DNA of 64,000 nt from Eledone cirrhosa (taxonomy: Eukaryota). Positions 2,184 through 63,920 of this stretch are shown piece after piece; position 1 is the stretch's first letter; the number at the start of each line of letters is the position of its first letter. Below the pieces are notes generated by a model, which saw nothing but the letters and a program-made list of their open reading frames with translations, was not told the origin of the DNA and did no database searches. The stretch covers positions 277,574,001 through 277,638,000 of the forward strand of contig OZ024740.1 in the NCBI GenBank assembly GCA_964016885.1, in the 5' to 3' direction. The translations under genes were made by a program, and so were the position numbers.

Positions 2184-2762
2184 AATATGAAAACATGGCG
2201 GGCTGCGTGGTTGCAAATGGGTTACATATGAATAAATTTAGTCCTTCATCAGTGATCTTCCAGCCTTCATTTGTATTTCATCGCTTTAAAGACCATATAC
2301 CTCTGGCTGGTGCGAGCAACGGCTAAAGAAAGTTGTTGGGACACCTAAATAGGGGGAACAAGCGGGACAGTAAACAAGCAAAGATGGTAATGCAACGAAA
2401 AGTGAGGAAGAAGGAGTCAAGTCCCTGAAATCGATGAACATAAGTTCTGTGAAATCGTAGACGAGAGAGAATAAAGACCACCCAACCTGGTCGAAATGTG
2501 TGTGAGGAAAGGATTTCGCACAGGTCAAACAGGATGAAGTAGGAGAGGGAGTAGCAGAGAGTGAGTGAGTGAAAGTGTGTGGAAGAGGCTAACAGAGAGA
2601 GTGACTGGCAGAGGGGGTAACAAGAAAGTGAGTGATACAGAGAAAGGGAAAGCAGTAAGAAAGAAACAGACGGGTCACAGCGGAGGAAAATATATAAGTA
2701 TATTAAAAATATGAAAACAAGGCGTGCTGCCTGGTTGCAAATGGGTTACATATGAATAAATT
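2181..2762 (-). mobile_element. Retrozyme-like non-coding element, 524-bp unit with ~58-bp terminal redundancy (locus B)
   Basis: Direct repeat 2181-2238 / 2705-2762; homologous to 19797-20857 and 26179-29237; flanked by (TA)n. Confidence 0.75.
2241..2342 (-). ncRNA. Putative reverse-order pseudoknotted hammerhead motif with K-turn (copy B)
   Basis: Minus strand: GUCC..UCGC A CCAGCC AGA GGUAU A UGGUCUU UAAA GCGA U GAA AUACA AAU GA A GGCUGG AAGAUCA CUGAUGA A GGAC. Confidence 0.65.
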
Positions 2763-6061: not shown

Positions 6062-6712
6062 ATATAAATATATTGTTATATTTGGGGAGGGTCATATTTG
6101 CGTAATATTGCCAGAATTAATAACAGAACACACTCACTGTTTGGTTGGTTTTCGCTTCTCGCTGTCTTTTTTATATATATATCTGCGATCTAACTTACTC
6201 GGTCCTCAATGTTGCCATTGACTGACCGGCGGTCAAAAAATAATACAGATACAATATAGACACAAACACATATATATAGTTTACATAATTTACATAAATC
6301 TTTCGTTGCACATCTGCAACATCGTCAGTGGTGTTATATTCATTGTTCCTCCTGTTGTGTTGTATGTCTACGCCATTTATTTTTGTTCAGTCTGTCTATA
6401 TATTTATTTATTTATTTGCTTGTTTGTTTATCTTATTTTATTTTGTCTTCTTTGCGCATGCGTTTGCGTGTGTGTATAGTGTTATGTGTGATATGTGACT
6501 AGTGTGTATAGTGTTGTGTCTGCTGGGTGACTAGTGTGTGTTTATGTGCTTGTGTATGTATTTATTTATCTTATTTTATTTAATTTTATTTACTTATTTA
6601 TACTTCTCTTAGGTCAGTGTTGTTTGTTTGGGTGTTGTTGTTGTTCCACTCATTCTTTCTGTTTAGCTTTGGTCTTCTAATTTCTATTTCACTGGCCTCT
6701 CTGATTTGCCTA

Positions 6713-9112
6713 GAGAAACTATTTTTCAACCCAGCTGACAAAACATATAAGATGGGTAATATCTATCCTACGAGGTTACCCTTTAATAAAAGAGTTTGCA
6801 TACCACAGCAAATAGATGACGAGACGGAGGCACAGTTCACCATAGCTAGAAATAAGATTAGACAAGTAGTAGACAGGTACACTATCAGACAGAGCAGACC
6901 AGAGGCCCAACAACTTGGGATAAAACCTGTAGAAGGCTTGGTTAGCCTCAAGCAGCGCACAAGGGATGGTGAGGTAGTGTGTCTACCCACAGATAAGTCT
7001 GGTAGGATGTCAATAGATAGCATGCCGAACTACATCGAGGCAATGCAACCCCACATCACCAACACGAGCGAAGTTGCACAACTAACACACGATGGGAGAG
7101 AAAAAATCCTCAACGCTCACATGATGATGTGGACTGACATCCTAAAGCCAAGCAGACGCACTGCCAACAACTTCCAGGCGTCTAACAATGGCATACCACC
7201 CTTGTATGGGCTCCGCAAAGACCACAAGACAGTCGACGACCCGACAACAGGACCACCAACAAGACCCGTATGCGGAGCTAATATAGCTAGCAACTACAGG
7301 ATCTCCTACTTCCTCTCAATGGTTATACGCCCCATAATCAAGATGTCCCCAGATGTATGTGAAAGTACAGAGGACCTCCTCAGCAGAATCAGTGAGTGCA
7401 ACAAAAACAGGAGCCTATCCAACTGCATAATAGGCATCATGGATGTGGTGTCACTGTACCCATCCATTAACATTGATTTTGCTGTGAAAAGACGTGTGGA
7501 GATGATCATTGAGAGTGAGGTGGAGTTCTGCGACGTCGACACAGACGAACTGGGCCTCCTACTTAGACTTACCTACGACACTGACTACCTAGACAGCCAT
7601 GACCTTAGATGTTTCTGCCCTAGTAGACCTATAAGAGGTAGACCCCCCACCATAACCTCAATGGCTAAAAAGACTCCCATAGGAAGGTGGATTGGGTGGA
7701 CCAAAGCTATACGGACCCCCCAAAACACTGATCAGGTAAGAAAAATGGTCGCACATGCAATAGGGGCTAGTATCAAAACTACCCTAAAGGGCCACATATT
7801 TAAGTTCAATGAGAAAATCTACACCCAAAATGAGGGAGCAGCCATCAGCGTCAGCATAGCTGGTGATGTTGCCAACCTTTTCATGGTATGGTGGGAAAGG
7901 AGACTTAAAGATCTCCTTAATGAAAGCTCCATAGACCTCATCATGTACTCTCGTTATGTAGACGATATCAATATAGTTATAAGAACACCCCCACTAGAGA
8001 GCACTAACAAGTTTGATTTAGAACGTAGCACGATGGAAAGCATCCAGCAGATAGCTAATTCCATACACCAGAGTATAACTGTAAATATAGACTTCCCTTC
8101 CAAACACCCTAACAATAGACTACCTGTATTAGACACAGAACTCTGGATTAACACTATAGACGAGAGAGCCCAAATTCTCCACTCACACTATGCTAAACCC
8201 ATGGCCTCCAAATACCTGATACTCAAAAACTCAGCAATGTCCAGTAGTGCTAAGTTTAATATTCTGATCGCAGATTTGGTACGAGTGATGAAGAAGGTAT
8301 CCAGCATGTGCGACCCAACAGAAATGGAAGGACACATCCAACACTTCATCAACCGCATGCAGTTCTCTGGCTACAACCAAAGAGACAGAGTCAGAGTATA
8401 CGAAGGAGCCATGGAAAAGTATAAGACCCTCATAGAACTGGACATGAAAGGAATTTGCCCACTATACAGGAGCAAATCATGGAATAGCTTAGATAGGGCT
8501 AGACATAAGATAGGGAAGGCCACATCATGGTACGACAACCAGAGATATCAGAGTGTCATGTTTGTGGACGCCACCCCTGGAGGGAAATTAGCTAACCAGT
8601 GTAGAAAGGCCCTGAGAAAGACCCACTTAAAAATAAAGGTGGTAGAAAAGCCAGGAACCACCATAAAATCCCTGATCAGCAAAACCTACCCTTTTAAGAA
8701 AACCCACTGTACCAATAGGATATGTATCATATGTAAGGTGAACCCCCGGATAAACTGTAAAACTAGAAACGTAGTCTATAGCATAAGATGTACAGAGGGT
8801 ACTTACAGAAACATGACAACAACATACATAGGTGAGACAGCTCGTAGCATAGGTGAAAGGATAGACCAACACTGGGGGGAACTAAAAGGACGAAAAAACG
8901 GGTCAGTACTATACGAACATGCTAGACAACAACATGACGGTAACATAGACAACATAGAAATTAGAATAATATCTAAACATAGGAATGACCCAGCAGATAG
9001 GCAAATCAGAGAGGCCAGTGAAATAGAAATTAGAAGACCAAAGCTAAACAGAAAGAATGAGTGGAACAACAACAACACCCAAACAAACAACACTGACCTA
9101 AGAGAAGTATAA
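6713..9112 (+). CDS. PLE reverse transcriptase + GIY-YIG endonuclease (5'-truncated, uninterrupted ~800 codons)
   Basis: PTDKSG, PPLYGLRKDHK, RPVC, MDVVSLYPSI, RYVDD, Cys-rich linker CTNRICIIC, VVY..YIGETARSIGERIDQH, REASEI..PKLN. Codons upstream of 6713 are read-through of the inverted arm. Confidence 0.93.
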   Translation, partial: EKLFFNPADKTYKMGNIYPTRLPFNKRVCIPQQIDDETEAQFTIARNKIRQVVDRYTIRQSRPEAQQLGIKPVEGLVSLKQRTRDGEVVCLPTDKSGRMSIDSMPNYIEAMQPHITNTSEVAQLTHDGREKILNAHMMMWTDILKPSRRTANNFQASNNGIPPLYGLRKDHKTVDDPTTGPPTRPVCGANIASNYRISYFLSMVIRPIIKMSPDVCESTEDLLSRISECNKNRSLSNCIIGIMDVVSLYPSINIDFAVKRRVEMIIESEVEFCDVDTDELGLLLRLTYDTDYLDSHDLRCFCPSRPIRGRPPTITSMAKKTPIGRWIGWTKAIRTPQNTDQVRKMVAHAIGASIKTTLKGHIFKFNEKIYTQNEGAAISVSIAGDVANLFMVWWERRLKDLLNESSIDLIMYSRYVDDINIVIRTPPLESTNKFDLERSTMESIQQIANSIHQSITVNIDFPSKHPNNRLPVLDTELWINTIDERAQILHSHYAKPMASKYLILKNSAMSSSAKFNILIADLVRVMKKVSSMCDPTEMEGHIQHFINRMQFSGYNQRDRVRVYEGAMEKYKTLIELDMKGICPLYRSKSWNSLDRARHKIGKATSWYDNQRYQSVMFVDATPGGKLANQCRKALRKTHLKIKVVEKPGTTIKSLISKTYPFKKTHCTNRICIICKVNPRINCKTRNVVYSIRCTEGTYRNMTTTYIGETARSIGERIDQHWGELKGRKNGSVLYEHARQQHDGNIDNIEIRIISKHRNDPADRQIREASEIEIRRPKLNRKNEWNNNNTQTNNTDLREV

Positions 9113-9376: not shown

Positions 9377-9420
9377 CACCACTGACGATGTTGCAGATGT
9401 GCAACGAAAGATTTATGTAA
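9377..9420 (+). ncRNA. Minimal type I hammerhead in PLE 3' UTR (inverted twin at 6290-6333, minus)
   Basis: CA CTGACGA T GTTGCA gatg TGCAAC GAAA GATT TA TG; stem I is short. Confidence 0.7.
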
Positions 9421-10759: not shown

Positions 10760-11338
10760 TTAAATTAGCCATGTCAGCTCATTTCTCTCGGCCCGGTTGT
10801 TAAGTGGGGGTCTGAGGTTCTTAATAACAAGTGCTTCCTTTATCCTTAAGGATCCGATGCTGCGTTCAGTCGCTAGGACTGTGACCAAGGGTCTACCCTG
10901 TGGGTTTCCGCATTTGAGGATATGTTTACGGAAGGAAGATGCGTTGGTGTTGATATGTTCCTTGATACGAACATGTAGGGGTCGGATGGTGCTACCTATG
11001 TAAAACTTGTTACATTTATCGCATTGAATCTTATATACGACATAGGTGCGTAGGCAATCTGCCCCCCGTATCGGGCAGTTGCTGAGGGAACAAGTCCTAT
11101 CTGCCTCGTAGGGTTTGTTGGAGAGGCATCTTCGCAGCGAAGGTCCTGTGTGGGCCAAATGTATGTCAAGTCCCTCCGTACGTATGGCCCTGCGGATGGC
11201 GTTCGTGGTACATTCACTCAGGTGGGGGATTTTAAAGAAGCACCTGCTAATATTAAGTTTTCTAGTGGGTGTCGGTCTACTGGGTCTGGGGTCTCTAATT
11301 CCGTTAATCAGTCGCTTGGGATAACCATTAGATCTGAG
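10760..11338 (-). pseudogene. 5'-truncated PLE ORF (thumb end + GIY-YIG), left arm
   Basis: LRSNGYPKRLI..CSLSNCPI..VVYKIQCDKCNKFYIGSTIRPLHVRIKEH..IKEALVI..PPLN. Confidence 0.9.
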
Positions 11339-11885
11339 TAACGGAATTAGAGACCCCAGACCCAGTAGACCGACACCCACTAGAAAACTTAATATTAGCA
11401 GGTGCTTCTTTAAAATCCCCCACCTGAGTGAATGTACCACGAACGCCATCCGCAGGGCCATACGTACGGAGGGACTTGACATACATTTGGCCCACACAGG
11501 ACCTTCGCTGCGAAGATGCCTCTCCAACAAACCCTACGAGGCAGATAGGACTTGTTCCCTCAGCAACTGCCCGATACGGGGGGCAGATTGCCTACGCACC
11601 TATGTCGTATATAAGATTCAATGCGATAAATGTAACAAGTTTTACATAGGTAGCACCATCCGACCCCTACATGTTCGTATCAAGGAACATATCAACACCA
11701 ACGCATCTTCCTTCCGTAAACATATCCTCAAATGCGGAAACCCACAGGGTAGACCCTTGGTCACAGTCCTAGCGACTGAACGCAGCATCGGATCCTTAAG
11801 GATAAAGGAAGCACTTGTTATTAAGAACCTCAGACCCCCACTTAACAACCGGGCCGAGAGAAATGAGCTGACATGGCTAATTTAA
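11339..11885 (+). pseudogene. 5'-truncated PLE ORF (GIY-YIG), right arm
   Basis: Same peptide as the left arm, starting at NGIRDP. Confidence 0.9.
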
Positions 11886-19803: not shown

Positions 19804-20857
19804 AAGTGAGTCCTTCATCAGTGACCCTCCAACCGTCCTCGGCATTTCATCGCTTTAAGGGCCATATGCCTCAGGTTGGTGCGAACAACGGCTAAAAAAA
19901 GTCGTTGGGACACGTAAATAAAGGGGGACGCTAGAGTAACAACAAAAGGGTTTAAGCAACGGAAAGTGAGTAGAAATAGACAAGTCCCAGATCTCTATGA
20001 ATATAAACTCTGTGAAATCGTGAACAAGAGACGAAAGACCATCGAACCTGGTAGAAATGTGAGCAAGGAAAGAATTTCGCCCAAGTTTGACGGGGGGGAA
20101 AAAAGAGAGAGAGAGAGAAAGAAGAAGAAGAAGAAGAAGAAGAAGAAGAAGAAGAAGAAGAAGAAGAAGAAGAAGAAGAAGAAGAAGAAGAAGAAGAAGA
20201 AGAAGAAGAAGAAGAAGAAGAAGAAGAAGAAGATAAGGTGGTCTGGTCTACGAATTCGGTAAACGCAAGTTTTGTGAAGTCGCAGACGAAAGAGAGAGAG
20301 AAAAAAATTCCATACCAGCTCGGTCAAGACTGCGCGAGAAAAGAATTACACACAGGTCAAACTTGAAGGAGGAGGAGGAAAGAGGAGGAGGAGAGGTAGT
20401 GACAGAGAATGAGTGAGTGAAAGTTGAGGAGAGAGTAACAGAGAGGGAGACTGCTAGAAGTGGTAAAGATACAAGGAACGAAACAGACAGGCAGCATGGA
20501 AAAGTAATATGTGTAAATATGATGATAATAATGGAGCTGCGGCGTTGCAAATGGGATACATATGAAAAAGTGAGTCCTTCATCAGTGACCCTCCAACCGT
20601 CCTCGGCATTTCATCGCTTTAAGGGCCATATGCCTCAGGTTGGTGCGAACAACGGCTAAAAAAAGTCGTTGGGACACGTAAATAAAGGGGGACGCTAGAG
20701 TAACAACAAAAGGGTTTAAGCAACGGAAAGTGAGTAGAAATAGACAAGTCCCAGATCTCTATGAATATAAACTCTGTGAAATCGTGAACAAGAGACGAAA
20801 GACCATCGAACCTGGTAGAAATGTGAGCAAGGAAAGAATTTCGCCCAAGTTTGACGG
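19797..20857 (-). mobile_element. Retrozyme-like element, 764-bp unit, ~1.4 copies, with internal (AAG)n (locus C)
   Basis: ~297-bp direct repeats 19797-20093 / 20561-20857; two motif copies at 19810-19911 and 20574-20675. Confidence 0.8.
20574..20675 (-). ncRNA. Putative reverse-order pseudoknotted hammerhead motif with K-turn (copy C; identical at 19810-19911)
   Basis: GUCC CAACG..CGUUG U UCGC A CCAACC UGA GGCAU A UGGCCCU UAAA GCGA U GAA AUGCC GAG GA C GGUUGG AGGGUCA CUGAUGA A GGAC. Confidence 0.7.
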
Positions 20858-20972
20858 AAAGAATTTATATCTAGTAACATATATATACATACAAATGCAT
20901 ATCGATGCTAGCAAATATATAGGTTTTGTCTTAATAACATTGTGGTTCAATGCATGGGGTTGCAGAACAATA

Positions 20973-21729
20973 ATATAAGAGACGTAAGATAAGAAAATTA
21001 TAAAATTAACTTACTTACTAAAATATCACTTCCAACTAATTAGTTTCTGGAATGGAGTAGATACATCTTCCGAAGAAGGTGTGGAGAAACATCCCGTCAT
21101 CAGGAAAGTCAATTCTCATATAAGTTTCCAGGCAAAGCGAGGACACTGGAAGCTTATTAAAAAATAAATCAGTGAATAGGAAATAGCAAAGCGTGGACTT
21201 ACTTCCTACCCATTGAGAAAATCACTGCCTCTGTATCCGTGGCAAATTCAAAAAGAATCGAACACGTGACGTCGAGGTCAATAGGTGGAAAGTGGGTTGT
21301 TAATAAGACAGCGGCCGGATATAAATTCTTTATTATTATCTCCAAAATATTTGTCGAGCAATACTGGCCATGACTGCTACTACTGTAGTAGGCCGACCGC
21401 TGTCTTATTAACAACCCACTTTCCACCGATTGACCTCGACGTCACGTGTTCGATTCTATTTGAATTTGCCACGGACACAGAGGCAGTGATTTTCTCAATG
21501 GCTAGGAAGTAAGTCCACGCTTTGCTATTTCCTATTCACTGATTTATTTTTTAATAAGCTTCCAGTGTCCTCGCTTTGCCTGGAAACTTATATGAGAATT
21601 GACTTTCCTGATGACCGGATGTTTCTCCACACCTTCTTCGGAAGATGTATCTACTCCATTCCAGAAATTAATTAGTTGGAAGTAATATTTTAGTAAGTTA
21701 ATTTTATAATTTTCTTATCTTACGTCTCT

Positions 21730-25959: not shown

Positions 25960-26093
25960 AGTAATTAGCTTACTTACTTAAATTTCACTCCATCTTTCAA
26001 TCCCCTTGCATTGAACCACGAAGTTACTAAGACAAAACCTATATATTTGCTTGCATAGGTATACATCTGTATATATATGTTGGTAGATATACT

Positions 26094-26178
<85 letters not shown>

Positions 26179-29100
26179 GGCAAATCACTGATGAGGGACT
26201 TATTTTATTACATGTTACCATGTGCTACCTGCAGTATTTTTCTCTATATTTTAATACATATATTTACCACTGCGATTCTGTGTTTTTTTCTCTCTCTCTC
26301 TTACTGTTCCCCTATTCTCTCTGTTTCTCCCCCTCTGTCTTGTCCGTTAACTCTTCCTCACACTTTCACTCACTCACTGTTTTTCTCCCTCTTCTCTTCA
26401 TTTCATCCTGCACTCACGAACGCTATTTTTTCTCGCTCTGCTCAATGGCTTTCGTTCGTGTTGGTACTATTCTCTAAGCTCTCATATATTCACCTAGCTT
26501 ATGCTAAACGAATTATTTTTGAAGCTTGTTTCTCCCCTAAGGTATGCTATATTTTCTGTTGTTCTCCTGTCTCACTCGCTTTACGCGTTTTAATTGTCCT
26601 AATAACTTATTTTGGTTATTATTGCACCGAAGTGAGATATATGATTTTTAATGCAATGAAATATCTATGATCTTCGGCAAATCACTGATGAGGGACTTAT
26701 TTTATTACATGTAACCATGTGCTACCTGCAGTATTTTTCTCTATATTTTAATACATATATTTACCACTGCGATTCTGTGTTTTTTTCTCTCTCTCTTACT
26801 GTTCCCCCATTCTCTCTGTTTCTCCCCCTCTGTCTTGTCCGTTAACTCTTCCTCACACTTTCACTCACTCACTGTTTTTCTCCCTCTTCTCTTCATTTCA
26901 TCCTGCACTCACGAACGCTATTTTTTCTCTCTCTGCTCAATGGCTTTCGTTCGTGTTGGTACTATTCTCTAAGCTCTCATATATTCACCTAGCTTATGCT
27001 AAACGAATAATTTTTGAAGCTTGTTTCTCCCCTAAGGTATGCTATATTTTCTGTTGTTCTCCTGTCTCACTCGCTTTACGCGTTTTAATTGTCCTAATAA
27101 CTTATTTTGGTTATTATTGCACCGAAGTGAGATATATGATTTTTAATGCAATGAAATATCTATGATCTTCGGCAAATCACTGATGAGGGACTTATTTTAT
27201 TACATGTTACCATGTGCTACCTGCAGTATTTTTCTCTATATTTTAATACATATATTTACCACTGCGATTCTGTGTTTTTTTCTCTCTCTCTCTTACTGTT
27301 CCCCCATTCTCTCTGTTTCTCCCCCTCTGTCTTGTCCGTTAACTCTTCCTCACACTTTCACTCACTCACTGTTTTTCTCCCTCTTCTCTTCATTTCATCC
27401 TGCACTCACGAACGCTATTTTTTCTCTCTCTGCTCAATGGCTTTCGTTCGTGTTGGTACTATTCTCTAAGCTCTCATATATTCACCTAGCTTATGCTAAA
27501 CGAATAATTTTTGAAGCTTGTTTCTCCCCTAAGGTATGCTATATTTACTGTTGTTCTCCTGTCTCACTCGCTTTACGCGTTTTAATTGTCCTAATAACTT
27601 ATTTTGGTTATTATTGCACCGAAGTGAGATATATGATTTTTAATGCAATGAAATATCTATGATCTTCGGCAAATCACTGATGAGGGACTTATTTTATTAC
27701 ATGTTACCATGTGCTACCTGCAGTATTTTTCTCTATATTTTAATACATATATTTACCACTGCGATTCTGTGTTTTTTTCTCTCTCTCTTACTGTTCCCCC
27801 ATTCTCTCTGTTTCTCCCCCTCTGTCTTGTCCGTTAACTCTTCCTCACACTTTAACTCACTCACTGTTTTTCTCCCTCTTCTCTTCATTTCATCCTGCAC
27901 TCACGAACGCTATTTTTTCTCTCTCTGCTCAATGGCTTTCGTTCGTGTTGGTACTATTCTCTAAGCTCTCATATATTCACCTAGCTTATGCTAAACGAAT
28001 AATTTTTGAAGCTTGTTTCTCCCCTAAGGTATGCTATATTTTCTGTTGTTCTCCTGTCTCACTCGCTTTACGCGTTTTAATTGTCCTAATAACTTATTTT
28101 GGTTATTATTGCACCGAAGTGAGATATATGATTTTTAATGCAATGAAATATCTATGATCTTCGGCAAATCACTGATGAGGGACTTATTTTATTACATGTT
28201 ACCATGTGCTACCTGCAGTATTTTTCTCTATATTTTAATACATATATTTACCACTGCGATTCTGTGTTTTTTTCTCTCTCTCTCTTACTGTTCCCCCATT
28301 CTCTCTGTTTCTCCCCCTCTGTCTTGTCCGTTAACTCTTCCTCACACTTTCACTCACTCACTGTTTTTCTCCCTCTTCTCTTCATTTCATCCTGCACTCA
28401 CGAACGCTATTTTTTCTCTCTCTGCTCAATGGCTTTCGTTCGTGTTGGTACTATTCTCTAAGCTCTCATATATTCACCTAGCTTATGCTAAACGAATAAT
28501 TTTTGAAGCTTGTTTCTCCCCTAAGGTATGCTATATTTACTGTTGTTCTCCTGTCTCACTCGCTTTACGCGTTTTAATTGTCCTAATAACTTATTTTGGT
28601 TATTATTGCACCGAAGTGAGATATATGATTTTTAATGCAATGAAATATCTATGATCTTCGGCAAATCACTGATGAGGGACTTATTTTATTACATGTTACC
28701 ATGTGCTACCTGCAGTATTTTTGTCTATATTTTAATACATATATTTACCACTGCGATTCTGTGTTTTTTTCTCTCTCTCTTACTGTTCCCCCATTCTCTC
28801 TGTTTCTCCCCCTCTGTCTTGTCCGTTAACTCTTCCTCACACTTTCACTCACTCACTGTTTTTCTCCCTCTTCTCTTCATTTCATCCTGCACTCAGGAAC
28901 GCTATTTTTTCTCTCTCTGCTCAATGGCTTTCGTTCGCGTTGGTACTATTCTCTAAGCTCTCATATATTCACCTAGCTTATGCTATGCTAAACGAATAAT
29001 TTTTGAAGCTTGTTTCTCCCCTAAGGTATGCTATATTTTCTGTTGTTCTCCTGTCTCACTCGCTTTACGCGTTTTAATTGTCCTAATAACTTATTTTGGT

Positions 29101-29229
29101 TATTATTGCACCGAAGTGAGATATATGATTTTTAATGCAATGAAATATCTATGATCTTCGGCAAATCACTGATGAGGGACTTATTTTATTACATGTTACC
29201 ATGTGCTACCTGCAGTATTTTTCTCTATA

Positions 29230-29237
<8 letters not shown>
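26179..29237 (+). repeat. Tandem array of ~496-bp non-coding units (~6.15 copies), retrozyme-like (locus A)
   Basis: Unit starts at 26179, 26676, 27171, 27668, 28163, 28660, 29160; units near-identical; (TA)n flanks. Confidence 0.97.
26596..26696 (+). ncRNA. Putative reverse-order pseudoknotted hammerhead motif with K-turn (copy A, first of six)
   Basis: GUCC UAAUAAC..GUUAUUA UUGC A CCGAAG UGA GAUAU A UGAUUU UUAAU GCAA U GAA AUAUC UAU GA U CUUCGG C AAAUCA CUGAUGA G GGAC. Confidence 0.7.
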
Positions 29238-29286
<49 letters not shown>

Positions 29287-31234: not shown

Positions 31235-31957
31235 TTAGAAATAGCGTGGGGGCAAGAAGAGAATATCTCAGACTTTCTATTAAGTAAGGATTCACTAGAG
31301 AAAATTATAGTGTGTCTCAAGGATACAGAGATTACAAAATTTAGTATGTGTAGAAAGGTTAATAGAGCGTGCTACTAAACGCCAATTAAGGCTATATGGT
31401 ATATTAGCCCCCTTAAGATCCCAGATATAGTGTGCTAAAGAAGTAGAATTCTTAAACTTAACATGTTTGAAATTAGAGATATTAGAATTAAACCTAGTCT
31501 TAAAAGTGTTAGATGTAGAGCCTATATATGTTCTATTAGAGGAATTAGTTATAACTACGCAAGCATAAACGATGTTCTTAGAGAGGCAGTTACCGTTTAA
31601 AGGGCAGTTAGCACCCACTCTACAGTTACACTTCCGGGTGCTATTGATTGGCTGAAGTAGTAATGCATTACGCGTAGGATTAGTATTAGATAAGGTCTGC
31701 TCTGGTGGTAAGGCATTTGCAGATCTGTTCTGACTAGTAGTATGTAGAGAGGAGTATCCATCCCTAATTTTCCTATTGTTAGTGCTAGCTAAATGAGAAC
31801 TAATATTAGGGGTGGTAGAGAATGAGAGTTTAATAACATTTTTATTAAAAATACTATGGTATTTATGAGAAGGGGGAAATTTTTCTTTAAGATAGAAAAG
31901 AAGGACCTAGGGATATTAGTTAATACTTCCTGATTATATGGCGGGTTAAAATAAGTA
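31235..31957 (-). pseudogene. Disrupted PLE ORF (linker + GIY-YIG)
   Basis: CNCRVGANCPLNGNCLSKNIVY..YIGSTSNTFKTRF..STSLAHYIWDLK..CNLCILE, with frameshifts. Confidence 0.88.
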
Positions 31958-37660: not shown

Positions 37661-38760
37661 AGGTGTTAAAGTTTGCTTTGAAGCATTGTGAAATGTGTAA
37701 AATACGTACTTAAGAAAGCCACAACAATGCAGAGGGAAATCTCGAGGTAGGAAGTGAAAGATAGATAGGAAAAACAGGTGAAAGTGAAAATTGAGAGAGA
37801 CAAAGATGAAAACAAAACAAAGGTAGAAGGGTTACCGTAGTAGAGATTTAACCCCAATATTTCGGGCTCACGCCCATCAACGGGGGAAAGTTCCAAAAGG
37901 GGGGGAACAGGCCAAGCGGAGAAAGTTGTGATGTCGTTAAGACAGGAATGCCGTTATGGGGAGAAAATTATTTAAAATTTAAACGAGGGAAAGAATGCGC
38001 GTGCGCGTGATAGGCTGTGGCAAAAGCTACTGACCAAATGGGTTAAATCAAGAGGGTGCGATAGCGTGTGAAAGCCGTAAGATATGTGTGTGTAAATATA
38101 TATGTGTGTGTAACTGTGTGTGTATAAGTGTAAGTGTGTATATGTGTGAGTGTGTGTGTGTGTGAAAGATAGTGGGCTGTAGAAGCTGGAAAGTGAATGG
38201 TCACTATGGTTAAGTTAGCCATGTCAGCTCATTTCTCATAGCCCGGTTGTTAAGTGGGGGTCTGAGGTTCTTAATAACAAGTGCTTCCTTTATCCTTAAG
38301 GATCCGATGCTGCGTTCAGTCGCTAGGACTGTGACCAAGGGTCTATCCTGTGGGTTTCCGCATTTAAGGATGTGTTTACGGAAGGAAGATGCGTTGGTGT
38401 TGATATGTTCCTTGATACGAACATGTAGGGGTCGGATGGTGCTACCTATGTAAAACTTGTTACATTTATCGCATTGAATCTTATATACGACATAGGTGCG
38501 TAGGCAATCTGCCCCCCGTATCGGGCAGTTGCTGAGGGAACACGTCCCATCTGACTCGTCGGGTTTGTTGGAGAGGCATCTTCGCAGCGAAGGTCCTGTG
38601 TGGGCTAAATGTATGTCAAGTCCCTCCGTCCGTATGGCCCTGCGGATGGCGTTCGTGGTATATTCACTCAGGTGGGGGATTTTAAAGAAGCACCTGCTAT
38701 TATTTAATTTTCTAGTGGGTGTCTGTCTATTGGGTCTGGGGTCTCTAATTCCGTTAATCG
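37660..38760 (-). mobile_element. 5'-truncated PLE, same family as 9961-12724 (GIY-YIG at 38210-38760)
   Basis: Near-identical peptide and 3' UTR; UTR lacks the internal duplication of the palindromic copy. Confidence 0.93.
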
Positions 38761-38769
38761 GAATATATA

Positions 38770-38825
<56 letters not shown>

Positions 38826-38982
38826 CGAAGGAAATGTGGTAAGGAACCAGGTGGACCATATCGCACGAAAGTACTCAATCCTTGAGGTAGTAGAGTGGGT
38901 AATAGGTAGTGAGGTAGTAGAGTGGGTAATATATATATATATATATATACATATATACATATTTATACATATATATATATAC

Positions 38983-40597: not shown

Positions 40598-43500
40598 GAC
40601 GACAGTCAACGCGATCAGTCGCATATTTTGGCGTGGGAGACCATTTATTAAATTTAAGATGAATACTATCTCCGACAGTAATGCCACAACTACAGCCAGG
40701 TTGACTGGTTGTTCTTCTGGTTATTCTTCTAACTATACCTTCTGAAGACACTTTTTATTCGAATTTGTAGAGATATCCGACTAAATACATAATTCATTTT
40801 ACAAGGATTTGCTACAAACAGCATGGCTGAATACAACATCAACAAAAACATTAAGGAAGTACCGAAGACAAATAACAAGGAAGGTAATCAAACTTTATTC
40901 AGTTGTAGCTACAGAAGAACCCGAAATTATAAATCGCATTTCTCTTGGAGTTGCGAACTTAATAATGATTTATTTAATTGTTATGAAATGGCAAAAAAAC
41001 AATCCCTCCATTGGCTATATGAATAGAATGAAGCTACACTGGGACGAAATGCACCCAGAGCTAAATTATTTCACAGCGAAACAATTACGCCAACAAGCGA
41101 CGTTTGTTGAACGTAAAAATAAGATAAATATTATTAATTGTAAGTCCCCCACAACAAACATGGAATCAACAACACGTGCTACAGATCGCCATGCTACTAG
41201 ACTTCCTAGCAGCCAGGTCGAACAGCGCCTTGAAACAACTATGCCTGTAAGAATTTGACACCACCTATACCATCTAAGTCTACCTCGAATGCTGGGGAAA
41301 ACACTATCGTTAATAATAATTGTTTCTACGTTAGGCACAAGGCCAGCAATTACCCAGTGCATTACTGGTACTTTAATTTATCGACCCCTTAAGGATGAAA
41401 GGCAAAGTTAACCTTGGCGGGATTAATCGAAGAAATAATAATAATAATCGAATAAATGTGACACCACGTATACCATCTGAGTCTACCTCGACTGTTGTTG
41501 AAAATACTATCGATAATGATAATCAAAAGTATAAACAATTGAAAATTTCCCCCAACGAAATTTTCCAGAGAGAAATTAACTCATGTGTAAATATCTCTCT
41601 GGCTGAACGTGTTAAAATGACAATGGTGAATAAAAAACCAAATAATGAAATACTACGTGTTATTGACGAAATAGGGGATGAATATTTACGACGGATAAAA
41701 ACCCCAACATTTTGGCAAATCAACGCCTGTTTATATACCTTAGCAATGACAGTGAAGCATTATCTTGGTGATAGCAGAGATATTAACAAGAACAAAACAC
41801 CACCAAAAATACCATCATATATAACTAAAATAGAAAAAAAGAGTGCTGACCTACGAAAAAACATAGGACATGTGACAATGCTCCTTACATGCAAACAAAC
41901 ACAAAAAAACCTCACTCCTCACCAACAAAGAGTGAAAAATAAAATAGAGACGATGTTTTGTAGCAGTAGAACCAGAACTCTCCAATATAAGCTGATCACC
42001 CTCAAACAAGAATTGAGAGCTGTTAGCGAAAAACGCCGATACCCGAAGAAGGTAGATGAGAGAAAAGTGCTTAATAAAATATTCAGATGAATCCAAACAT
42101 CAGTCTATAGAGATATGAAGGGCAAAATAATAAGTGTTACTGAGGCCCCATCCCAGAAAGACATAGATTCCTTTTGGAGAAAAATATGGGATGAAAAGAA
42201 GAATTTCAACCAAGATGCAGTGTGGCTAAGAGAAATCCGAAAGAACTATTGCTCCTACACTACAACAAAAACATACGAAATAAGTGAGGGTACGTACCCT
42301 TGAGACTGTGATAGGAAAACTCCAAGATAAGAAAACACCAGGAAGAGACATGATTGTCGGCTACTGGTAGAAAAAACTAATATTCTATCGGAGGTATCTT
42401 ACTGACCTCTACCAACAAGTTCTTAAGGGAGATACACTTATACCAGAATGGTTGACATTAGCACAAACGTTACTGGTCGCCAAGAACATATCACACACTT
42501 GGCAAAAAACTACCGACCCATTGTATGCCAGAACCTGATGTATAAGATGTATACAGCCTGCCTGAACCTATTCCTCCAAGATCACTGTGAAAATAATAAC
42601 ATCATCACAGATGAACAAACAGCTGTAAAGAAAGAGGTTTGGGTATGTGCTGAACAACTCCTAATCAACAAAACTGCGATGTCGGAGGTGCGACAACTTA
42701 GGAGAAATATGACTACAGTCTGGCTGGACTACAGGAAAGCTTTCGATTCTGTTCCCCACTCTTAGATGATAGAGGCCCCCCAACTTGCTAAAGTCCCAGA
42801 CATTATTGTCAGAGCCATAGAGAGGCTGTCTTCTTCTTGGGCTACTAACCTAAGGTTAAAGTCAGTCTATTTTCACTGATAAAATAAAATATTGCAGGGG
42901 TATTTCAGGGGGACAGTCTCTCTGTGATATTATTCATCTTGTCATTAAACCCCTTGTCCTTTCTGCTCAAGAAATGTGAGGGATACATCATGGCCTCACA
43001 GGAGGACAGAAATACGAACCTAACCCATAATTTCTTTGTGGATGATCTAAAACTCTATCCCAAGAACATGGATGGGATGAAGAAAAATCTTGACCTGGTT
43101 ACAACGTTCTCTAAGGATATAGGAATGGAGTTTGGCCAAGATAAATGCTCATACATGACTGTAAAGCGGGGAAAAACAACAACCCAATCTAGCAACATTG
43201 TCATCAATGGTCTAACTATTTCACCGATATCTGATGAGGACTGCTACAGATACCTAGGGATAGATGAGAACATATCCCATAATGGTATCTGTAATAAAAA
43301 ACGCGTAACCAGGGAATACTACATCTGATTAAGAAAGATCTGGTCATCGGAACTCTCTACGCAAAACAAAACAGTGACTCACAATGTGTTTGCTGTGCCT
43401 GTCCTAACACCAACGTTTGGAATACTCAATTGGACGATAGACGAAATCCGAGCAGTTTATGTTGGAACTCGAAAAATACTGAGCAACAGCGGAAACGTCC

Positions 43501-44811
43501 ACATCAACAGTGACATAGACCGCCTTTACTTGAAACGTAAGCAGGCAGGCAGAGGCCTAACATCAGTCCAGAAAACATTTGAATGTCGTATCATATCTCT
43601 CCGACAACATCTACGAACCTCGAAGCGTAGGAGCCCGTTTCTCGAGCAAGTATATCTGCATGGAACAGATAAGATCATGAGAGTTGGGAGGGAACTCCTT
43701 GAGAATATTCCCTGTGTGATAATCAAAAACTCACACCCAGGGATGTCGCTCAGCAGTATCGCAGTGAATACATGCATGCTTATCAGCAAAAAATCATGCA
43801 TGCCTATTTTGCCAGGAAGCTCCAGAGTGAGAGTAGTATAGATAAGGAAAGTAGTGTATCTTGGACCAACAACCGCTATATTGGCTCCCACTTTGAAGGA
43901 TACACTTTTGCAATCCAGGAACAGGAGATTAGCACGAAATACCTGATTCACAAAAGAGACAGGGATGCAGGCAAAACACCTAGATGTGATAACAAGTGCA
44001 AACTCTGCAGAACATCGAGGATATCACCCATGTCATCAGCAGCTGTCCAAAGATGTCATCGCGGTACTATCTACCTATGAGGCATGATGTAGTCGCCAAA
44101 ACACTGTACAATGCAGTTCATAAAAATGTTAGTCCCGTTAATAAACACATTAAAAGCTACAACAATGTGGAAGACATCCATGTACATAATATGAAAGAGT
44201 ACTGGTGCAATGTACCACTATAAACCCCAATAAAATGCAGTCATAACAGACCAGATATTATGATATGGGACAGGGAGAAGAAAGCATGCACAGTAGTGGA
44301 AATTAGCTGCCCAGCAGACGCCAATATAATATCAAAGATTAGTGAAAAGGAGAATATTTATGCAGAACTGATGAGAAATCTGCAGATACTCCACCCTGAT
44401 TACACCTTCAGATTTATGCCTGAGATTATTGGGGCACTGGGATATGTTAGTAACTGCCTCAATACAAATGTTGAGAAGCCAGGCTTCACAGGAACAGAAA
44501 GAACACAACTAGCTAGGAAATTACAAGTACAATCCATTAATGGAACAGTAAAAATATGTGAAACATTCCAAACATTTTGCATCTAATAACTGCATATACA
44601 CATGTACAGATACAAAGCATATACACATGCACACATACAATTCAAAATATACACAACCACACATACAATAACACCCCTATCTACACATGCATACATACAT
44701 ATCTACCTAGTTGATGTTGTGTAAATTCCAATGAGAGAGTCTTGTGTCTATGTTAGAAACCGACTCTCTCTCTATTGGTAAAACTTTGTGAAATTATAAA
44801 ACCAGAAAAAC
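40598..44811 (+). mobile_element. Degenerate non-LTR retrotransposon with RT and restriction-like endonuclease (R4/Dong-like)
   Basis: NYRPIVCQNLMYK, WLDYRKAFDSVPHS, FQGDSLS, FFVDDLKLY, CKLC..HVISSC, RHD, RPDIMIWD..VEISCP; many stops and frameshifts; (CATA)n on both sides. Confidence 0.9.
41320..41428 (-). mobile_element. 5'-truncated SINE inserted in the R4-like element
   Basis: Matches 47231-47340 and 52153-52260. Confidence 0.8.
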
Positions 44812-52637: not shown

Positions 52638-53635
52638 AGTGAAAACTGGAACGGGAACGAAAACAGAGAGGCAGTACAAACAAATGTTTATTAGTTTCAC
52701 GCTCTTGAGAGGGGGGGGGGAGACGTTCGGGCATAACCTCTTCTTCAGGAGAAAAGTGGTTGGGAAGAGAGTTCCGAGGGTGTGTGGGGGAGTGGTGGAG
52801 AGACATTTAGAAAAAAGGGAGGAGAAACGGTGGAAGGGGTACAAATAAAAATATAAATAAAGATAAACAAGTGGTGGAAGGATGTGGGGCGTGTATGGGT
52901 GGTGGCGGGTGGAGTAGGGAGAGGGGGGGTCCGAGCGGGGAGGGATGAAGGTGGTGTTTGTGTATGTGTGTAGGTGTACGCGTGTGTATGTGTATGTGAA
53001 GCCTGAATGTGTATATGTGGGGGTACGCACGTGTGTGTTGGTGTCTATACGTGGTGTGGATGTAGGTGGCCTGGTTCGAAAAAAGATTGTGATTGTATGT
53101 CCGTGGGTAAGTTCCTAAGGTATTTCCGAGGAGTGCGATGAGGTACCGGATATTTGTTCATGTTATGGAGTGGATAGCTGGAACGATGAGCGGTGGTGTG
53201 TAATTCGTTGGTTGTGGTGGTCGGAAGTGGGGAGATGTGGGGTGCGCGTGCAACAGGAAGTGGTCAGAGAGTCAAGGCAGGATGAAGAGATAGCAGTAGA
53301 GGAGAATGACAGGTGGAGAAAGTCAGTGTGTGGTGAGGACTGTGTGTCTGTGTGTGCGCAGGTGCGGTAGACAGGGGAGGGGATGGGTAGGTGTGAAAGG
53401 TGGGGTGGGGAGGGGGTCATGTGGGGTGGGGTGTATTAGTAGAGGTGTTAGAGGGATGTGTGTATGTGAAAGGGTGTGGGTGGAGCGGGGAGAGGGAAAG
53501 GGAGAGAAAAGGTGTGGGGGTCGGTGGAGGGAGTGTAGTGTACTTGTGGGTCTTGATGAGGTGGTAGAAAGTGGGCAGTCTGCTATTTCTAGTGGTGTAG
53601 TTGAGCTTAACTTTATTCGGGAGTTGTCTTCTCCT
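52638..53635 (-). mobile_element. Inverted arm: short RT N-terminal piece fused to an unrelated CA-rich 3' end
   Basis: Minus strand RRQLPNKVKLNYTTRNSRLPTFYHLIKTHK, then non-coding sequence ending in a decayed CTGAAGA..CCCGAAC motif and (TA)n. Confidence 0.65.
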
Positions 53636-53641
53636 ACAGAT

Positions 53642-55035
53642 ATCAAGACCCACAAGAATAGCACTAAGACGCAAATAAGACCCATCGTCTCTAGCATAGA
53701 AGGACCCCTATACAAAATTTCCTGGCTTCTCTCCCAGGTCCTCAAGCCTCTACTCTCCACCTTCCCCGGGCATGTCAGTAGCTCCGACGAAGTTATACGT
53801 AGACTACACCAACTCCAGCCAGAACAACTTAAACTAAATAAATACGCTTTTAGCCTCGACGTTGTCTCCCTCTACACTACAGTCCCCGCTCACCCAGCTG
53901 TCGATTTATTGACGGACTGCGTGGTCGCAGAGAACATCCACTGCTACGGCCTCCACCCGACGGACATACACCAGCTTTTGTCCTTCACAGTAGACAACAC
54001 GTACTTCACCTTCCAACACCACACATACAGACAGACAACAGGATTACCCATGGGATCCAGCCTTTCGGGCCTGCTGGCCATCACCTACATGAACCAGCTA
54101 GAATGCCGAGCCCTCAACACCTGCCATTCCCATGCCTTCTTCACCCGATATGTAGATGACATACTCATCCTTACATCATCCCGTGAGGAGGCAGAGAAAA
54201 TATACACAACATTCTCCAGCATGGACGCCAGTATAAAGTTCAGCATGGAACACCCCGATGACCGCGGATCCCTATCCCTACTGGACTTCCAACTCAGGGT
54301 AACAGAGGAAGGCAACATCCACACCTGCTTCTATAAAAAATCCGCCAGCAGGGACCTGTTCGTACATTTCAGATCGGCCCTCCAATTCGGTGTCAAGTTC
54401 GGATACATAAAGAACGAACTGGCACGTATCAAGAACAAATGCACCGACGCCAGAGACCGAGACACACACACCACACATTTCCTGGAAGTACTCAAACTGA
54501 ACGGATACACGACATCCACCACAAACCGTGCCAGAAAGAACAGAGGACACCACACCCGAGGCACTAACACTTGCTTCCTGAAGCTCCCACACTTCAGTGA
54601 AGAAACAACAACAGCCATCCGCAGAGCCATCAGACGAGAGGGACTGGATATCCAACTGGCCCACTCGGGTCCTTCTCTGCGCGGACGGCTGGCCAAGAGA
54701 CACTCCACCAGACATGACAACTGCTGCAGACTAGCCAACTGCCCCATCAACGACACAGACCTATGCCACCAGGCTTACGTAGTATACAGACTAGAGTGTG
54801 ACAAATGCAACAACTTCTACGTAGGTAGCACCACCAGACCACTCCACATAAGAATAAAAGAACACCTCAATACTAACGCTTCCTCATTTAAGAAACACCT
54901 AGTTAAATGCAAAAACACCGATAAAAACATAACAGTTAGGATAGAAACTAAGGAAAGAAACCTCGGCAATCTTAGAATTAAGAAGCACTTATTATAGATA
55001 AAACGTATCCTCCAATCAATAATAGACTAGAGCTC
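53642..55035 (+). pseudogene. 5'-truncated PLE RT + GIY-YIG ORF (frameshift near C-terminus)
   Basis: IKTHK..IRPIVS, SLDVVSLYT, GLPMGSSLS, RYVDD, SLLD, NGY, VVY..YVGSTTRPLHIRIKEH. Confidence 0.93.
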
Positions 55036-61847: not shown

Positions 61848-63920
61848 GTGGGTTTCAGGAAAAGGACGCAGTACAACCGATCAATGCCTCCGACTCTCCC
61901 AATTCATCTCGGATGGGTTCCAGTCGTTGCAGCGCAAACGCACCCTAACCACCTTTTTCGACTTTAGCAGGGCGTACGATCGTGTCTGAAGAACCGGACT
62001 ACTGTAGAGCATGCTGAGGCTTGGTGTGCCCCTACGTTTTGTTGAATGGTTGTCGACATGGTCTGAGAACCGCACCGCGAGAGTCCGTCTTAACTCAACG
62101 ACAGGTAGGAGCAGAGTGTTAAAAGAAGGCCTTCCACAAGGGGCCGTCCTGCCTCCAATCCTCTTCACGGTCTACATAAACAGACTCCTAGATGGATTTG
62201 AAGAATCTACGCACGTCAACGCCTACGCAGATGATCTGGCGATCGTGTGTAACGGAAGGAATAAAGATGAAGTAGCCGTCCTACTACAAAAAGAGGTTGA
62301 CAAGGTAGCTGAATGGAGCAAGGAAGCTAGACAGCAGCTCAATATTAATAAATGCGAGACAGCATTTTTCTGTCTTGATGGAGCAGAGGCAAAGTGGCAG
62401 CCCAATATCGCAATAGCCGGGAAGCAACTTTCTTGCAACCCTTTCCCAAAATTCATGGGCATCACATACGATCGGCAGTTAACCTTTGGGGAACATGTCG
62501 AGAAGGTATGTCGAACTATCCAATCGAGAACGAACCTGCTAAAGACTGTAGCAGGAACGACGTGGGCCTGGAAGAAGGCGGGTCTTCGCCAAATCGACAG
62601 TGCCGTACAACGAAGCATCACAGAATATGCGGCTCCGGGGTGGACACCCTGGTTGTCTGACACCAACATCGGCAAGCTCGAAAGAGTACAACTAGACGTG
62701 GATCGAGCCATCACCTGCCAAGTCAGAACTCCCCCCCCCCCGACCGAAACTGTGCTAGCAGAATCCCAGTTACCTACGCTCTCCTCCAGATTCTCGACAT
62801 TTGCACTGCTTAAAGCTGATCACTGGGCAAACCTACCAAAGACGGACAAATGGCACAAAGTTTTCAATACCAGCTACCGAAAAAGGCTCAAAAAGACAGA
62901 CTGGAGAGGTACCCAATCCCAGCACCTGGCACGACTACATCTTATCCCTTCGAGACCCCTACCAAAGAACCCAGAACCTCCCCTATGGCTACCGCACCCT
63001 CCATACATGTAATCTACACCAATACCCCAAAGTCCCAAAACGCAAACCAACAACTGACGGCAGCCTTAGACACCATATCAACCCTCGCCCCGTCAGATGT
63101 TCAAATCTACACCGATGGGTCTACAAAAGAAGGTACTACTGATGGCAGAGATGGTATGGTCATCATGAAAGATGGTGCGCTTGTCCACGAGTGGCATACA
63201 GCAACAGGTGCTAGAAGTAGCTCCTTTCACTCAGAAAAAGCTGCGCTGAGAGAAGCCATCCACTGGTTACAAACCAATAACGCAAAATGGACTTCGGCGA
63301 CCATCATCTGCGACTGTAAATCTCTAGTTCAGGCAGTCGACAACTCTGCCCCCAAAGATTCCACTATAACAGAACTCCAGGCAGCAGTTAACAACCTCGG
63401 AGAAAATAAAAACCTAACTGTTGTATGGGTCCCTGGTCACTGTAATCTATAAGGGAATGAACTAGCAGACAAACTCGCAAAGCAGGGCTCCTCACTTCCA
63501 CAACCTAACACCCCTGCTGACCATGCCACGAGACAAGTTCTCAACAAAAGTGAGTGTAGACCAGCACCCTTCACCCACGTGAAGAAAACCTTCAGAAAAC
63601 CGCCGGACGAGAGAGTCGAAAAGAGAGTCGAAGGCTGATCTCACCCACCTTATCTGCTTCAGAAGTGGGCACCTTCCAGCACTTCGCAGGTGGCAGCTAC
63701 TGACTGACAAATGTGAAGACAGCACTTGCAGACTCTGCGGTGAAGAGAAGGAGGAGTCTGAACACCTCTGGCTACGATCCCCTGCATTGGCGATCGAGTG
63801 ATACCATCACCAACTCGGTACATCCTTAGAGGAATTAGTCCGTCTCCCAGTCGCATCTCTAGCGCTTCTGAAGAGGATCCTCAGGCGCCTGAGGTGAATC
63901 AACAACAACAACACAACAGC
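61848..63920 (+). mobile_element. 5'-truncated non-LTR retrotransposon with RT + RNase H (I superfamily, possibly Ingi-like)
   Basis: FFDFSRAYDRV, GLPQGAVLPP, YADD; RNase H QIYTDGS..E..D..WVPGH..GNELAD; CRLC..H finger; (CAA)n tail; stops and frameshifts. Confidence 0.9.

What the first reader, a model, noticed from the sequence alone, without database searches (positions are those of the whole stretch)
26627..26677. Conserved kink-turn extending stem III of the motif
Seen: canonical helix, 3-nt bulge, tandem GA/AG, one non-canonical pair and a 6-bp helix in all loci (A: CCGAAG-U-GA / UAU-GA-U-CUUCGG; B: CCAGCC-A-GA / AAU-GA-A-GGCUGG; C: CCAACC-U-GA / GAG-GA-C-GGUUGG). Established: this is the K-turn consensus; K-turns bend RNA sharply and bind L7Ae-family proteins (15.5K/Snu13, eL30, SBP2). 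Inference: the kink folds stem III back toward stems I/II, and a host protein might tune cleavage or stabilise the RNA.
Basis: partly seen in the sequence, partly recalled or inferred. Interest (0 to 1): 0.72.

Follow-up and report, generated by a model that had tools for sequence, protein, structure and literature searches.

The report
Kink-turn hinge in scrambled hammerhead ribozyme
A mobile repeat present in many thousands of copies in this animal genome carries the parts of a predicted self-cutting RNA in a scrambled order, together with the sequence pattern of a sharp RNA bend (a kink-turn) that likely acts as the hinge letting the scrambled parts meet.

Summary
The kink-turn pattern is real. 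Hammerhead stem III is its canonical helix, followed by a 3-nt bulge, G·A pairs, a 3b·3n pair and a 6-bp helix. It sits in a hammerhead with blocks in site–GAAA–CUGAUGA order (type SGC), in a 495-nt tandem Penelope/Naiad-like repeat: 16,032 matches to a k-turn-blind pattern, plus 2,971 to a divergent-subfamily pattern. All six helices covary. G1b, A2b and A1n are near-invariant (141, 142, 139 of 145), but 2n is G in 105 and U in 38, with at least 4 switches on a tree. That is a Kt-23-like non-standard k-turn. No amplified subfamily lacks the arm (39 scattered deletions). Best reading: a structural hinge returning stem III to stems I/II (0.7). L7Ae/15.5K tuning is untested and the sequence signs are mixed. 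In 11 published Naiad 3′ ends read by eye, 2 use a k-turn and the rest use other bends or almost none. Cleavage is not shown. Seven literature searches found no such motif, but this scan noted the same fold before, in this genome and others.

The parts
26179..29244 (+). Tandem array A, 6.2 units of 495 nt, 98% matches, between (TA)n tracts; no real coding frame (only a low-complexity 171-203 aa frame)
26596..26599 (+). 5' strand of helix Pa; pairs with 26693-26696 after CUGAUGA
   Evidence: helix 1: 3 of 4 pairs with two-sided change
26600..26621 (+). Side hairpin (7 bp, 8-nt loop) in the junction that replaces stem II
   Evidence: helix 2; MFE
26622..26625 (+). 5' strand of helix Pc; pairs with 26653-26656 just before GAAA (pseudoknot)
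   Evidence: helix 3
26627..26632 (+). K-turn non-canonical (return) helix, 5' strand
   Evidence: helix 4: 5 of 6 pairs with two-sided change
26633..26635 (+). K-turn non-bulged strand: U3n, G2n, A1n
26636..26641 (+). Stem III 5' strand (= k-turn canonical helix), U16.1 at 26640, A17 at 26641; predicted cut between 26641 and 26642
   Evidence: analogy to the hammerhead consensus; helix 5; U16.1 in 142 of 145
26642..26647 (+). Stem I 5' strand (pseudoknot with 26679-26684)
   Evidence: helix 6: 6 of 6 pairs with two-sided change
26653..26661 (+). Pc 3' strand, position 11.1, and catalytic GAAA (26658-26661)
26662..26677 (+). Stem III 3' strand (26662-65), k-turn loop L1-L3 (26666-68), G1b-A2b (26669-70), U3b (26671), return helix 3' strand (26672-77)
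26679..26696 (+). Stem I 3' strand (26679-84), CUGAUGA (26685-91), 10.1 (26692), Pa 3' strand (26693-96)
20593..20643 (-). K-turn arm of subfamily C, copy 1 (3b·3n = C·U)
19829..19879 (-). K-turn arm of subfamily C, copy 2
2260..2310 (-). K-turn arm of subfamily B (3b·3n = A·A; -1 pair mismatched)

Best explanation
The element matches the kink-turn consensus on the far end of hammerhead stem III and likely works as a structural hinge in a non-circularly permuted (site-GAAA-CUGAUGA) hammerhead that is predicted to cut the repeat's RNA into unit-length pieces. Shown by sequence and covariation: in this strand order the far end of stem III continues through the k-turn into a 6-bp helix whose two strands join stem I and the stem-II-like helix Pc by one nucleotide each. 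Inferred: stems I and II lie on the opposite side of the core from the end of stem III, so the duplex must turn back, and the roughly 50-degree k-turn supplies the turn. The closed cage of helices would in turn stabilise the kink, as in the SAM-I riboswitch, which would explain why 2n can drift to U. Inferred: cutting after A17 (26641) processes tandem transcripts of this non-autonomous, (TA)n-targeting Penelope/Naiad-like repeat.
For: Covariation on 35 representatives (mean identity 67%): 26 of 33 pairs change on both sides against 18.0 in shuffles (0 of 500) and 7-16 in slid controls; the return helix 5 of 6 and stem III 3 of 5. The k-turn letters that make the cross-strand bonds are as fixed as the core: G1b 141, A2b 142, A1n 139, -1b·-1n C-G 132, L2 purine 144 of 145, while the return helix varies freely. 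Genome-wide in the main subfamilies, 11,639 of 12,236 matches keep all four G/A letters (95.1%) and 11,639 of 12,126 keep catalytic GAAA (96.0%). Only 39 matches have a shortened arm, all heterogeneous deletions, against 16,032 with it. Crude axis model: 23-30 A between the ends at 50 degrees, 64-67 A if straight. The 2n G/U variation (at least 4 changes) is the substitution seen in natural Kt-23 (PMC5061560; PMC2790904), and tertiary contacts rescue 2n-altered k-turns. Read by eye, distant Naiad 3' ends keep the topology but swap the bend: k-turn in Obim and Ovul; 7-nt bulge in Amil, Aacu, Anas; plain 3-nt bulge in Plae, three-way junction in Naiad-3_Chem, 5'-strand bulge in Naiad-2_Movir; multiway junction in Bfor.
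Against: No cleavage, probing or structure data exist. Copies were filtered for helix pairing (145 of 194 kept), which inflates the percent paired, and all share ancestry, so conservation partly reflects descent. The 95.1% figure excludes the 2n=U subfamilies by its anchor. One Naiad record near part 19 of the supplement (header not seen) reads as a near-straight 15-bp stem with a single-base bulge, so a sharp kink is not obligatory in every relative. The core is not canonical: 10.1·11.1 pairs in only 24 of 35 representatives and stem II is replaced by a junction. Nested folding gives weak z-scores for single motifs (-1.8 to +0.3). The genomic footprint of cutting is confounded by TA microhomology. 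The geometric model is back-of-envelope.
Confidence: 0.7

Rival explanations
1. The k-turn is mainly a binding site for a host L7Ae-family protein (15.5K/Snu13, eL30), and binding is needed to fold the ribozyme or protect the RNA, so cleavage is protein-gated.
For: L3 is U in 113 of 145 and L2 is a purine in 144 of 145. 20 of 145 motifs have G2n with U·U at 3b·3n and G-C at 4b·4n, a combination with very impaired ion-induced folding even when -1b·-1n is C-G (PMC5689011). U·U at 3b·3n (71 of 145) is the box C/D state. All 16 Kt-7 variants tested fold with L7Ae.
Against: -1b·-1n is C-G in 132 of 145, the self-folding state. 53 of 145 have ion-folding 3b·3n pairs and only 9 of 145 are Watson-Crick or G·U. 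G2n, contacted by L7Ae N33, is U in 38 of 145. 9 of 11 Naiad records read by eye lack a standard k-turn at this place. No binding data.
Confidence: 0.18
2. The arm is a hinge that chooses between a folded-back monomer and a head-to-tail swapped dimer: two straight stem III/return-helix duplexes from neighbouring tandem units could supply each other's stem I, Pc and CUGAUGA strands.
For: The motif is a duplex with complementary arms at both ends, the units are tandem, and one Naiad record has a near-straight arm. Dimeric cleavage by Penelope hammerheads is reported (Lunse 2017: title seen in a reference list; content recalled).
Against: A conserved k-turn favours folding in cis. Many loci hold a single motif. 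Nothing was tested.
Confidence: 0.08
3. The GA letters are conserved only by common descent of a young repeat and have no structural role.
For: Copies within a subfamily are 95-100% identical, and per-copy decay of the GA letters equals that of other positions, as expected for neutral copies after insertion.
Against: Between subfamilies (41-92% identity) the flanking helices turn over with compensation while G1b, A2b and A1n stay fixed. The oldest group seen keeps both GA dinucleotides in the copies read by eye (its pattern required the bulged-strand GA), and octopus Naiads have them at the same place.
Confidence: 0.04

Closest known systems
Standard and non-standard simple k-turns (Kt-7, box C/D, U4, SAM-I; Kt-23), Huang & Lilley 2016 PMC5061560 (parts 1-4 of 6 read)
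   Same: Canonical helix, 3-nt bulge, G1b·A1n, A2b·2n, 3b·3n pair, non-canonical helix; -1b·-1n mostly C-G; 2n is G or, as in Kt-23, U.
   Different: Neither arm ends in a loop docking on a receptor; both arms are built into a closed ribozyme cage. One family spans Kt-7-like, box C/D-like and Kt-23-like sequence types.
Type-SGC hammerhead ribozymes (HRIMA-1 and variants), Eckert et al. 2023 PMC10085705 (parts 1, 3, 4, 5 of 8 read; main text and supplement word-searched)
   Same: Block order site-GAAA-CUGAUGA; short linker from the stem I 5' strand to the strand before GAAA; full catalytic letters. The authors flag that the far end of stem III must reach a distant site, which is the problem this k-turn would solve.
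   Different: Theirs came from sequence collections with none in genomes of known organisms, have a normal two-strand stem II plus an 'I' helix, and the words 'kink' and 'k-turn' do not occur in the main text or held supplement. Here stem II is split into two helices with an upstream strand and a hairpin, and the motif is genomic and in more than 16,000 copies.
Naiad Penelope-like elements, Craig et al. 2021 PMC8557442 (passages; supplement part 1 and word searches)
   Same: (TA)n targeting, tandem and inverted insertions, short 3' tail. Octopus Naiad 3' ends read by eye show the same fold with a standard k-turn and a near-identical hairpin loop.
   Different: The paper reports no canonical hammerhead, only 'HHR_core' or 'half_core' notes. 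The repeat here is non-coding, and no autonomous partner was found in the loci examined.
Metazoan non-LTR retrozymes (bioRxiv 10.64898/2026.07.22.740005, part 1 of 5 read; PMC7229834 search listing only)
   Same: Non-coding tandem repeats with one hammerhead per unit, proposed to be mobilised by Penelope-like elements.
   Different: They carry type I hammerheads; a type I descriptor would miss this motif, and Rfam finds nothing here.

Membership tests
Simple k-turn | Watson-Crick canonical helix 5' of a 3-nt bulge | tested here: met
   Stem III, 93% of cells paired, 3 of 5 pairs compensatory (rows pre-filtered for pairing); -1b·-1n C-G in 132 of 145
Simple k-turn | G1b·A1n pair | tested here: met
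   G1b 141, A1n 139 of 145; G1b 187 of 194 unfiltered
Standard k-turn | A2b·G2n pair in all members | tested here: not met
   Met at 26634/26670 and in 105 of 145; 2n is U in 38 of 145, so those subfamilies are non-standard, Kt-23 type
Simple k-turn | Non-canonical helix continuing after 3b·3n | tested here: met
   6 bp, 5 of 6 pairs with two-sided change
Simple k-turn | Kinked 3D geometry with A-minor hydrogen bonds | not testable with these tools
   Needs FRET, gel or a structure; only a crude distance estimate was made
Box C/D (L7Ae-dependent) k-turn | Conserved U·U at 3b·3n with G-C at 4b·4n | tested here: not met
   20 of 145 have the combination; the copy at 26627 has U·U with C-G
Box C/D (L7Ae-dependent) k-turn | Binds 15.5K/L7Ae | not testable with these tools
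   No RNA-protein assay or model was run
Hammerhead ribozyme | CUGAnGA, GAAA, U16.1-H17 and stems I and III | tested here: met
   (CUGAnGA and GAAA were part of most search patterns; GAAA tested free)
Hammerhead ribozyme | Stem II formed directly between the strand after CUGAnGA and the strand before GAAA | tested here: not met
   At most one pair (10.1·11.1, 24 of 35); each strand instead pairs with upstream sequence
Hammerhead ribozyme | Site-specific self-cleavage after H17 | tested here: inconclusive
   Only an indirect genomic footprint, confounded by microhomology
Type-SGC permutation | 5'-to-3' block order site, GAAA, CUGAnGA | tested here: met
   26640-41, 26658-61, 26685-91; definition
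Naiad non-autonomous derivative | (TA)n targeting and tandem/inverted insertions | tested here: met
Naiad non-autonomous derivative | Shared 3' end with an autonomous Naiad in the same genome | tested here: inconclusive
   No Naiad-type RT frame seen upstream in the loci; likeness to published octopus Naiad ends read by eye

The most novel reading that the evidence does not exclude
A natural small self-cleaving ribozyme built as a closed cage by a kink-turn, in which subfamilies of one animal retroelement have tuned the hinge between self-folding (Kt-7 or Kt-23 type) and 15.5K/Snu13-dependent (box C/D type) versions, making a host snoRNP protein an on-switch for retroelement RNA processing.
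Probability: 0.18. Interest if true: 0.88.

Novelty: new variant of a known kind. Interest (0 to 1): 0.66.

Why it matters
It offers a concrete answer to a question Eckert et al. left open: how the far end of stem III reaches stems I/II in a non-circularly permuted hammerhead. It places that permutation in an animal genome at high copy number, in the element class reported to lack hammerheads. The subfamilies form a natural allelic series at 2n, 3b·3n and 4b·4n, so the k-turn folding rules can be read out directly as cleavage rate. If L7Ae/15.5K changes that rate, it is a natural protein-switched ribozyme.

Tried and rejected
Rfam gathering search of the window: 0 matches. Pattern scans of viral contigs (83 stretches) and metagenome contigs (100 stretches): 0 of 184 matches had the full set of helices (best 13 of 19 points), so all are chance. 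The look-up of sequencing runs: no RNA holder listed. Run X3 (kind not on record) has one 489-nt contig covering the unit from 26643 round to 26636, flanking the predicted cut, but on a second subfamily it gave only five short scattered contigs; not used as evidence. Head-to-head inversion junctions (198 matches, 100 listed) are scattered and follow short palindromes; there is no clean peak at the cut. Search for an autonomous partner: tblastn with three window proteins gave only unrelated flanking hits, RT-motif scan of the loci of 1.5 kb or more found none, and none of 30 older-subfamily loci had a Naiad-type frame upstream by eye (one had a canonical C-terminal GIY-YIG Penelope frame separated from a truncated motif by (TA)n). 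A snoRNA or twister/HDV reading was dropped: no Rfam hit, and covariation fits the hammerhead helices. Nested RNAfold cannot represent the pseudoknots and was not decisive. Bivalve, ostracod and some cnidarian Naiad ends seen could not be parsed into this fold by eye and are not counted among the 11. Complex prediction and the protein tools were not used, since there is no protein and RNA cannot be the partner.

Full report
OBSERVATION. The finding lies in a 495-nt tandem array of 6.2 units at 26179-29244 between (TA)n tracts. At 26627-26677 the sequence has a 6-bp helix, a U·U pair, G-A on the non-bulged strand, a 5-bp canonical helix, a UAU bulge and G-A on the bulged strand. This matches the k-turn definition in Huang & Lilley (PMC5061560). 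The same arrangement is in six A units, two C copies and one B copy; B has a mismatch at the pair next to the bulge. A strict scan gives 8 hits against 0.65 in 20 shuffles. Rfam finds nothing in the window.

WHAT IT BELONGS TO. The canonical helix is hammerhead stem III. From 5' to 3' the motif reads: Pa strand, hairpin, Pc strand, return helix, k-turn non-bulged strand, stem III, U16.1-A17 (predicted cut 26641/26642), stem I strand, linker, Pc partner, GAAA, stem III, bulge, GA, return helix, stem I partner, CUGAUGA, Pa partner. The block order site-GAAA-CUGAUGA is type SGC in Eckert et al. 2023 (PMC10085705), who validated such ribozymes, found none of this type in genomes of known organisms, and noted that the far end of stem III must connect to a distant site. 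Unlike theirs, stem II here is split: the strands after CUGAUGA and before GAAA each pair with upstream sequence, and 10.1·11.1 pairs in 24 of 35 representatives. 'Split core' is wording from earlier finding e1-8807323.

FAMILY. A pattern that ignores the k-turn matches 16,032 places in the 3.0-Gb genome, reversed control 0. A pattern for divergent stem I sequences matches 2,971 more, control 1, and a third matches 282, control 11. I fetched loci for the first 100 matches and about 90 divergent places. This gave 194 distinct motifs, of which 145 passed a helix-pairing filter that did not use the GA letters; the 49 dropped looked mostly 5'-truncated or carried indels. On 35 cluster representatives 26 of 33 pairs change on both sides, against 18.0 in shuffles (0 of 500) and 7-16 in slid controls. 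The filter inflates the percent paired and relatedness inflates cell counts.

K-TURN CONSERVATION. In the main subfamilies 11,639 of 12,236 matches keep all four G/A letters and 11,639 of 12,126 keep the catalytic GAAA; this anchor excludes the divergent subfamilies. Over the 145 motifs: G1b 141, A2b 142, A1n 139, G2n 105, U2n 38, -1b·-1n C-G 132, L2 purine 144, L3 U 113. On a tree built without the 2n column, starred branches force at least 4 changes between G and U (110 columns, so resolution is limited). Only 39 matches have a shortened arm, all different small deletions, so no armless version has amplified.

MECHANISM. Shown: the return helix joins stem I and Pc through one nucleotide each. 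From established hammerhead structure (stems II and III coaxial) and a crude axis model, the ends are 23-30 A apart at a 50-degree angle and 64-67 A if straight. Inferred: the k-turn is the hinge that closes the fold, and the closed fold stabilises the kink, as tertiary contacts do for a 2n-altered SAM-I k-turn. Published Naiad consensus ends (Craig et al. 2021, PMC8557442, File S5; read by eye in search passages, not all 54 records) keep the same topology in 11 records I could parse. Obim and Ovul have a standard k-turn at the same place. Amil, Aacu and Anas have a 7-nt bulge and Bfor a multiway junction. Plae has a 3-nt bulge without G·A pairs, Naiad-3_Chem a three-way junction and Naiad-2_Movir a bulge on the other strand; Esco apparently has the same other-strand bulge. 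This argues that a bend, not a protein site, is the conserved need. Against it, one record near part 19 (header not seen) has a near-straight arm, which keeps a swapped-dimer route open.

PROTEIN. By the Lilley rules (PMC4382518 part 1; PMC5689011 results part and discussion) the signs are mixed. 53 of 145 have ion-folding 3b·3n pairs, 71 have U·U, 9 have Watson-Crick or G·U pairs and 12 have others. 20 have the U·U plus G-C combination that folds poorly without L7Ae. The copy at 26627 has C-G at -1, U·U at 3 and C-G at 4, an intermediate that leans to self-folding. Binding in the cell is plausible because L7Ae proteins bind most k-turns, but a requirement is not supported.

CUTTING. Not shown. 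Copies truncated just 5' of stem I number 183; by eye about half of the 100 listed begin at or within one base of the predicted cut. In an upstream control of 243 matches, about half of the 100 listed are true truncations spread over 9 positions, so the excess is roughly 3- to 4-fold per position. However, joins to (TA)n concentrate both at the cut-site TATAT (32 of 100 listed) and at the TTAA linker (about 23 of 100), so microhomology confounds this. Inversion junctions show no clean peak.

ELEMENT. Arrays end 10-80 nt after the motif in (TA)n, with tandem and inverted copies, as described for Naiads, which were reported to lack canonical hammerheads. No autonomous partner was found in the loci examined. 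No relatives were found among 184 viral and metagenome pattern matches.

NOVELTY. Searches returned no paper describing a k-turn in a natural hammerhead or an SGC hammerhead in an animal; 'type-SGC' returned only Eckert 2023. I judged most of these from listings, and subscription papers are not covered. This scan's earlier notes describe the same fold in this genome and others and link it to Naiad and HERO elements; my SGC and hinge reading was recorded before seeing them, I checked the Naiad link in part, and did not check HERO. What this report adds is the position-by-position test of the k-turn, the recurrent 2n=U switch, the absence of armless subfamilies, and the swap of bend type across Naiads. 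Verdict: new variant of a known kind, interest 0.66.

Noticed in passing
window 25960-26096 (+) and 20860-21010 (-); L008, L049: A ~100-nt leader, 84-89% alike, lies upstream of arrays A and C and in two other loci; part of it also occurs inverted. Role unknown.
   Followed up: partly
L068, L084, L107 and about half of the 100 places listed: A subfamily has one extra U on the non-bulged strand between the return helix and G2n.
   Followed up: no
G000 places listed: About 8 of 100 listed copies have 1-2 nt deletions at or next to the predicted cut, and several have internal deletions ending there; could be scars of imprecise rejoining.
   Followed up: no
run X3 laid on window 26560-26760: One 489-nt contig covers almost exactly one unit, from 26643 round to 26636, with both ends beside the predicted cut; the run kind is not on record.
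   Followed up: partly
window 6584-9112 (+), flanked by CUGACGA at 9382 (+) and 6328 (-): 842-aa Penelope-like frame with RT and C-terminal GIY-YIG (motifs recognised from recall), with what looks like an ordinary hammerhead core in inverted terminal copies.
   Followed up: no
window 53300-54997 (+), 10760-11885, 38210-38962 (-), 31295-31906 (-): Further Penelope-like RT/GIY-YIG fragments.
   Followed up: no
window 40785-44500 (+) and 62008-63452 (+): Broken non-LTR retrotransposon frames, HERO/R4-like and RT-RNase H by recall.
   Followed up: no
L428-L457: An old, decayed group with a different Pc helix and stem I keeps both GA dinucleotides in several copies read by eye.
   Followed up: partly
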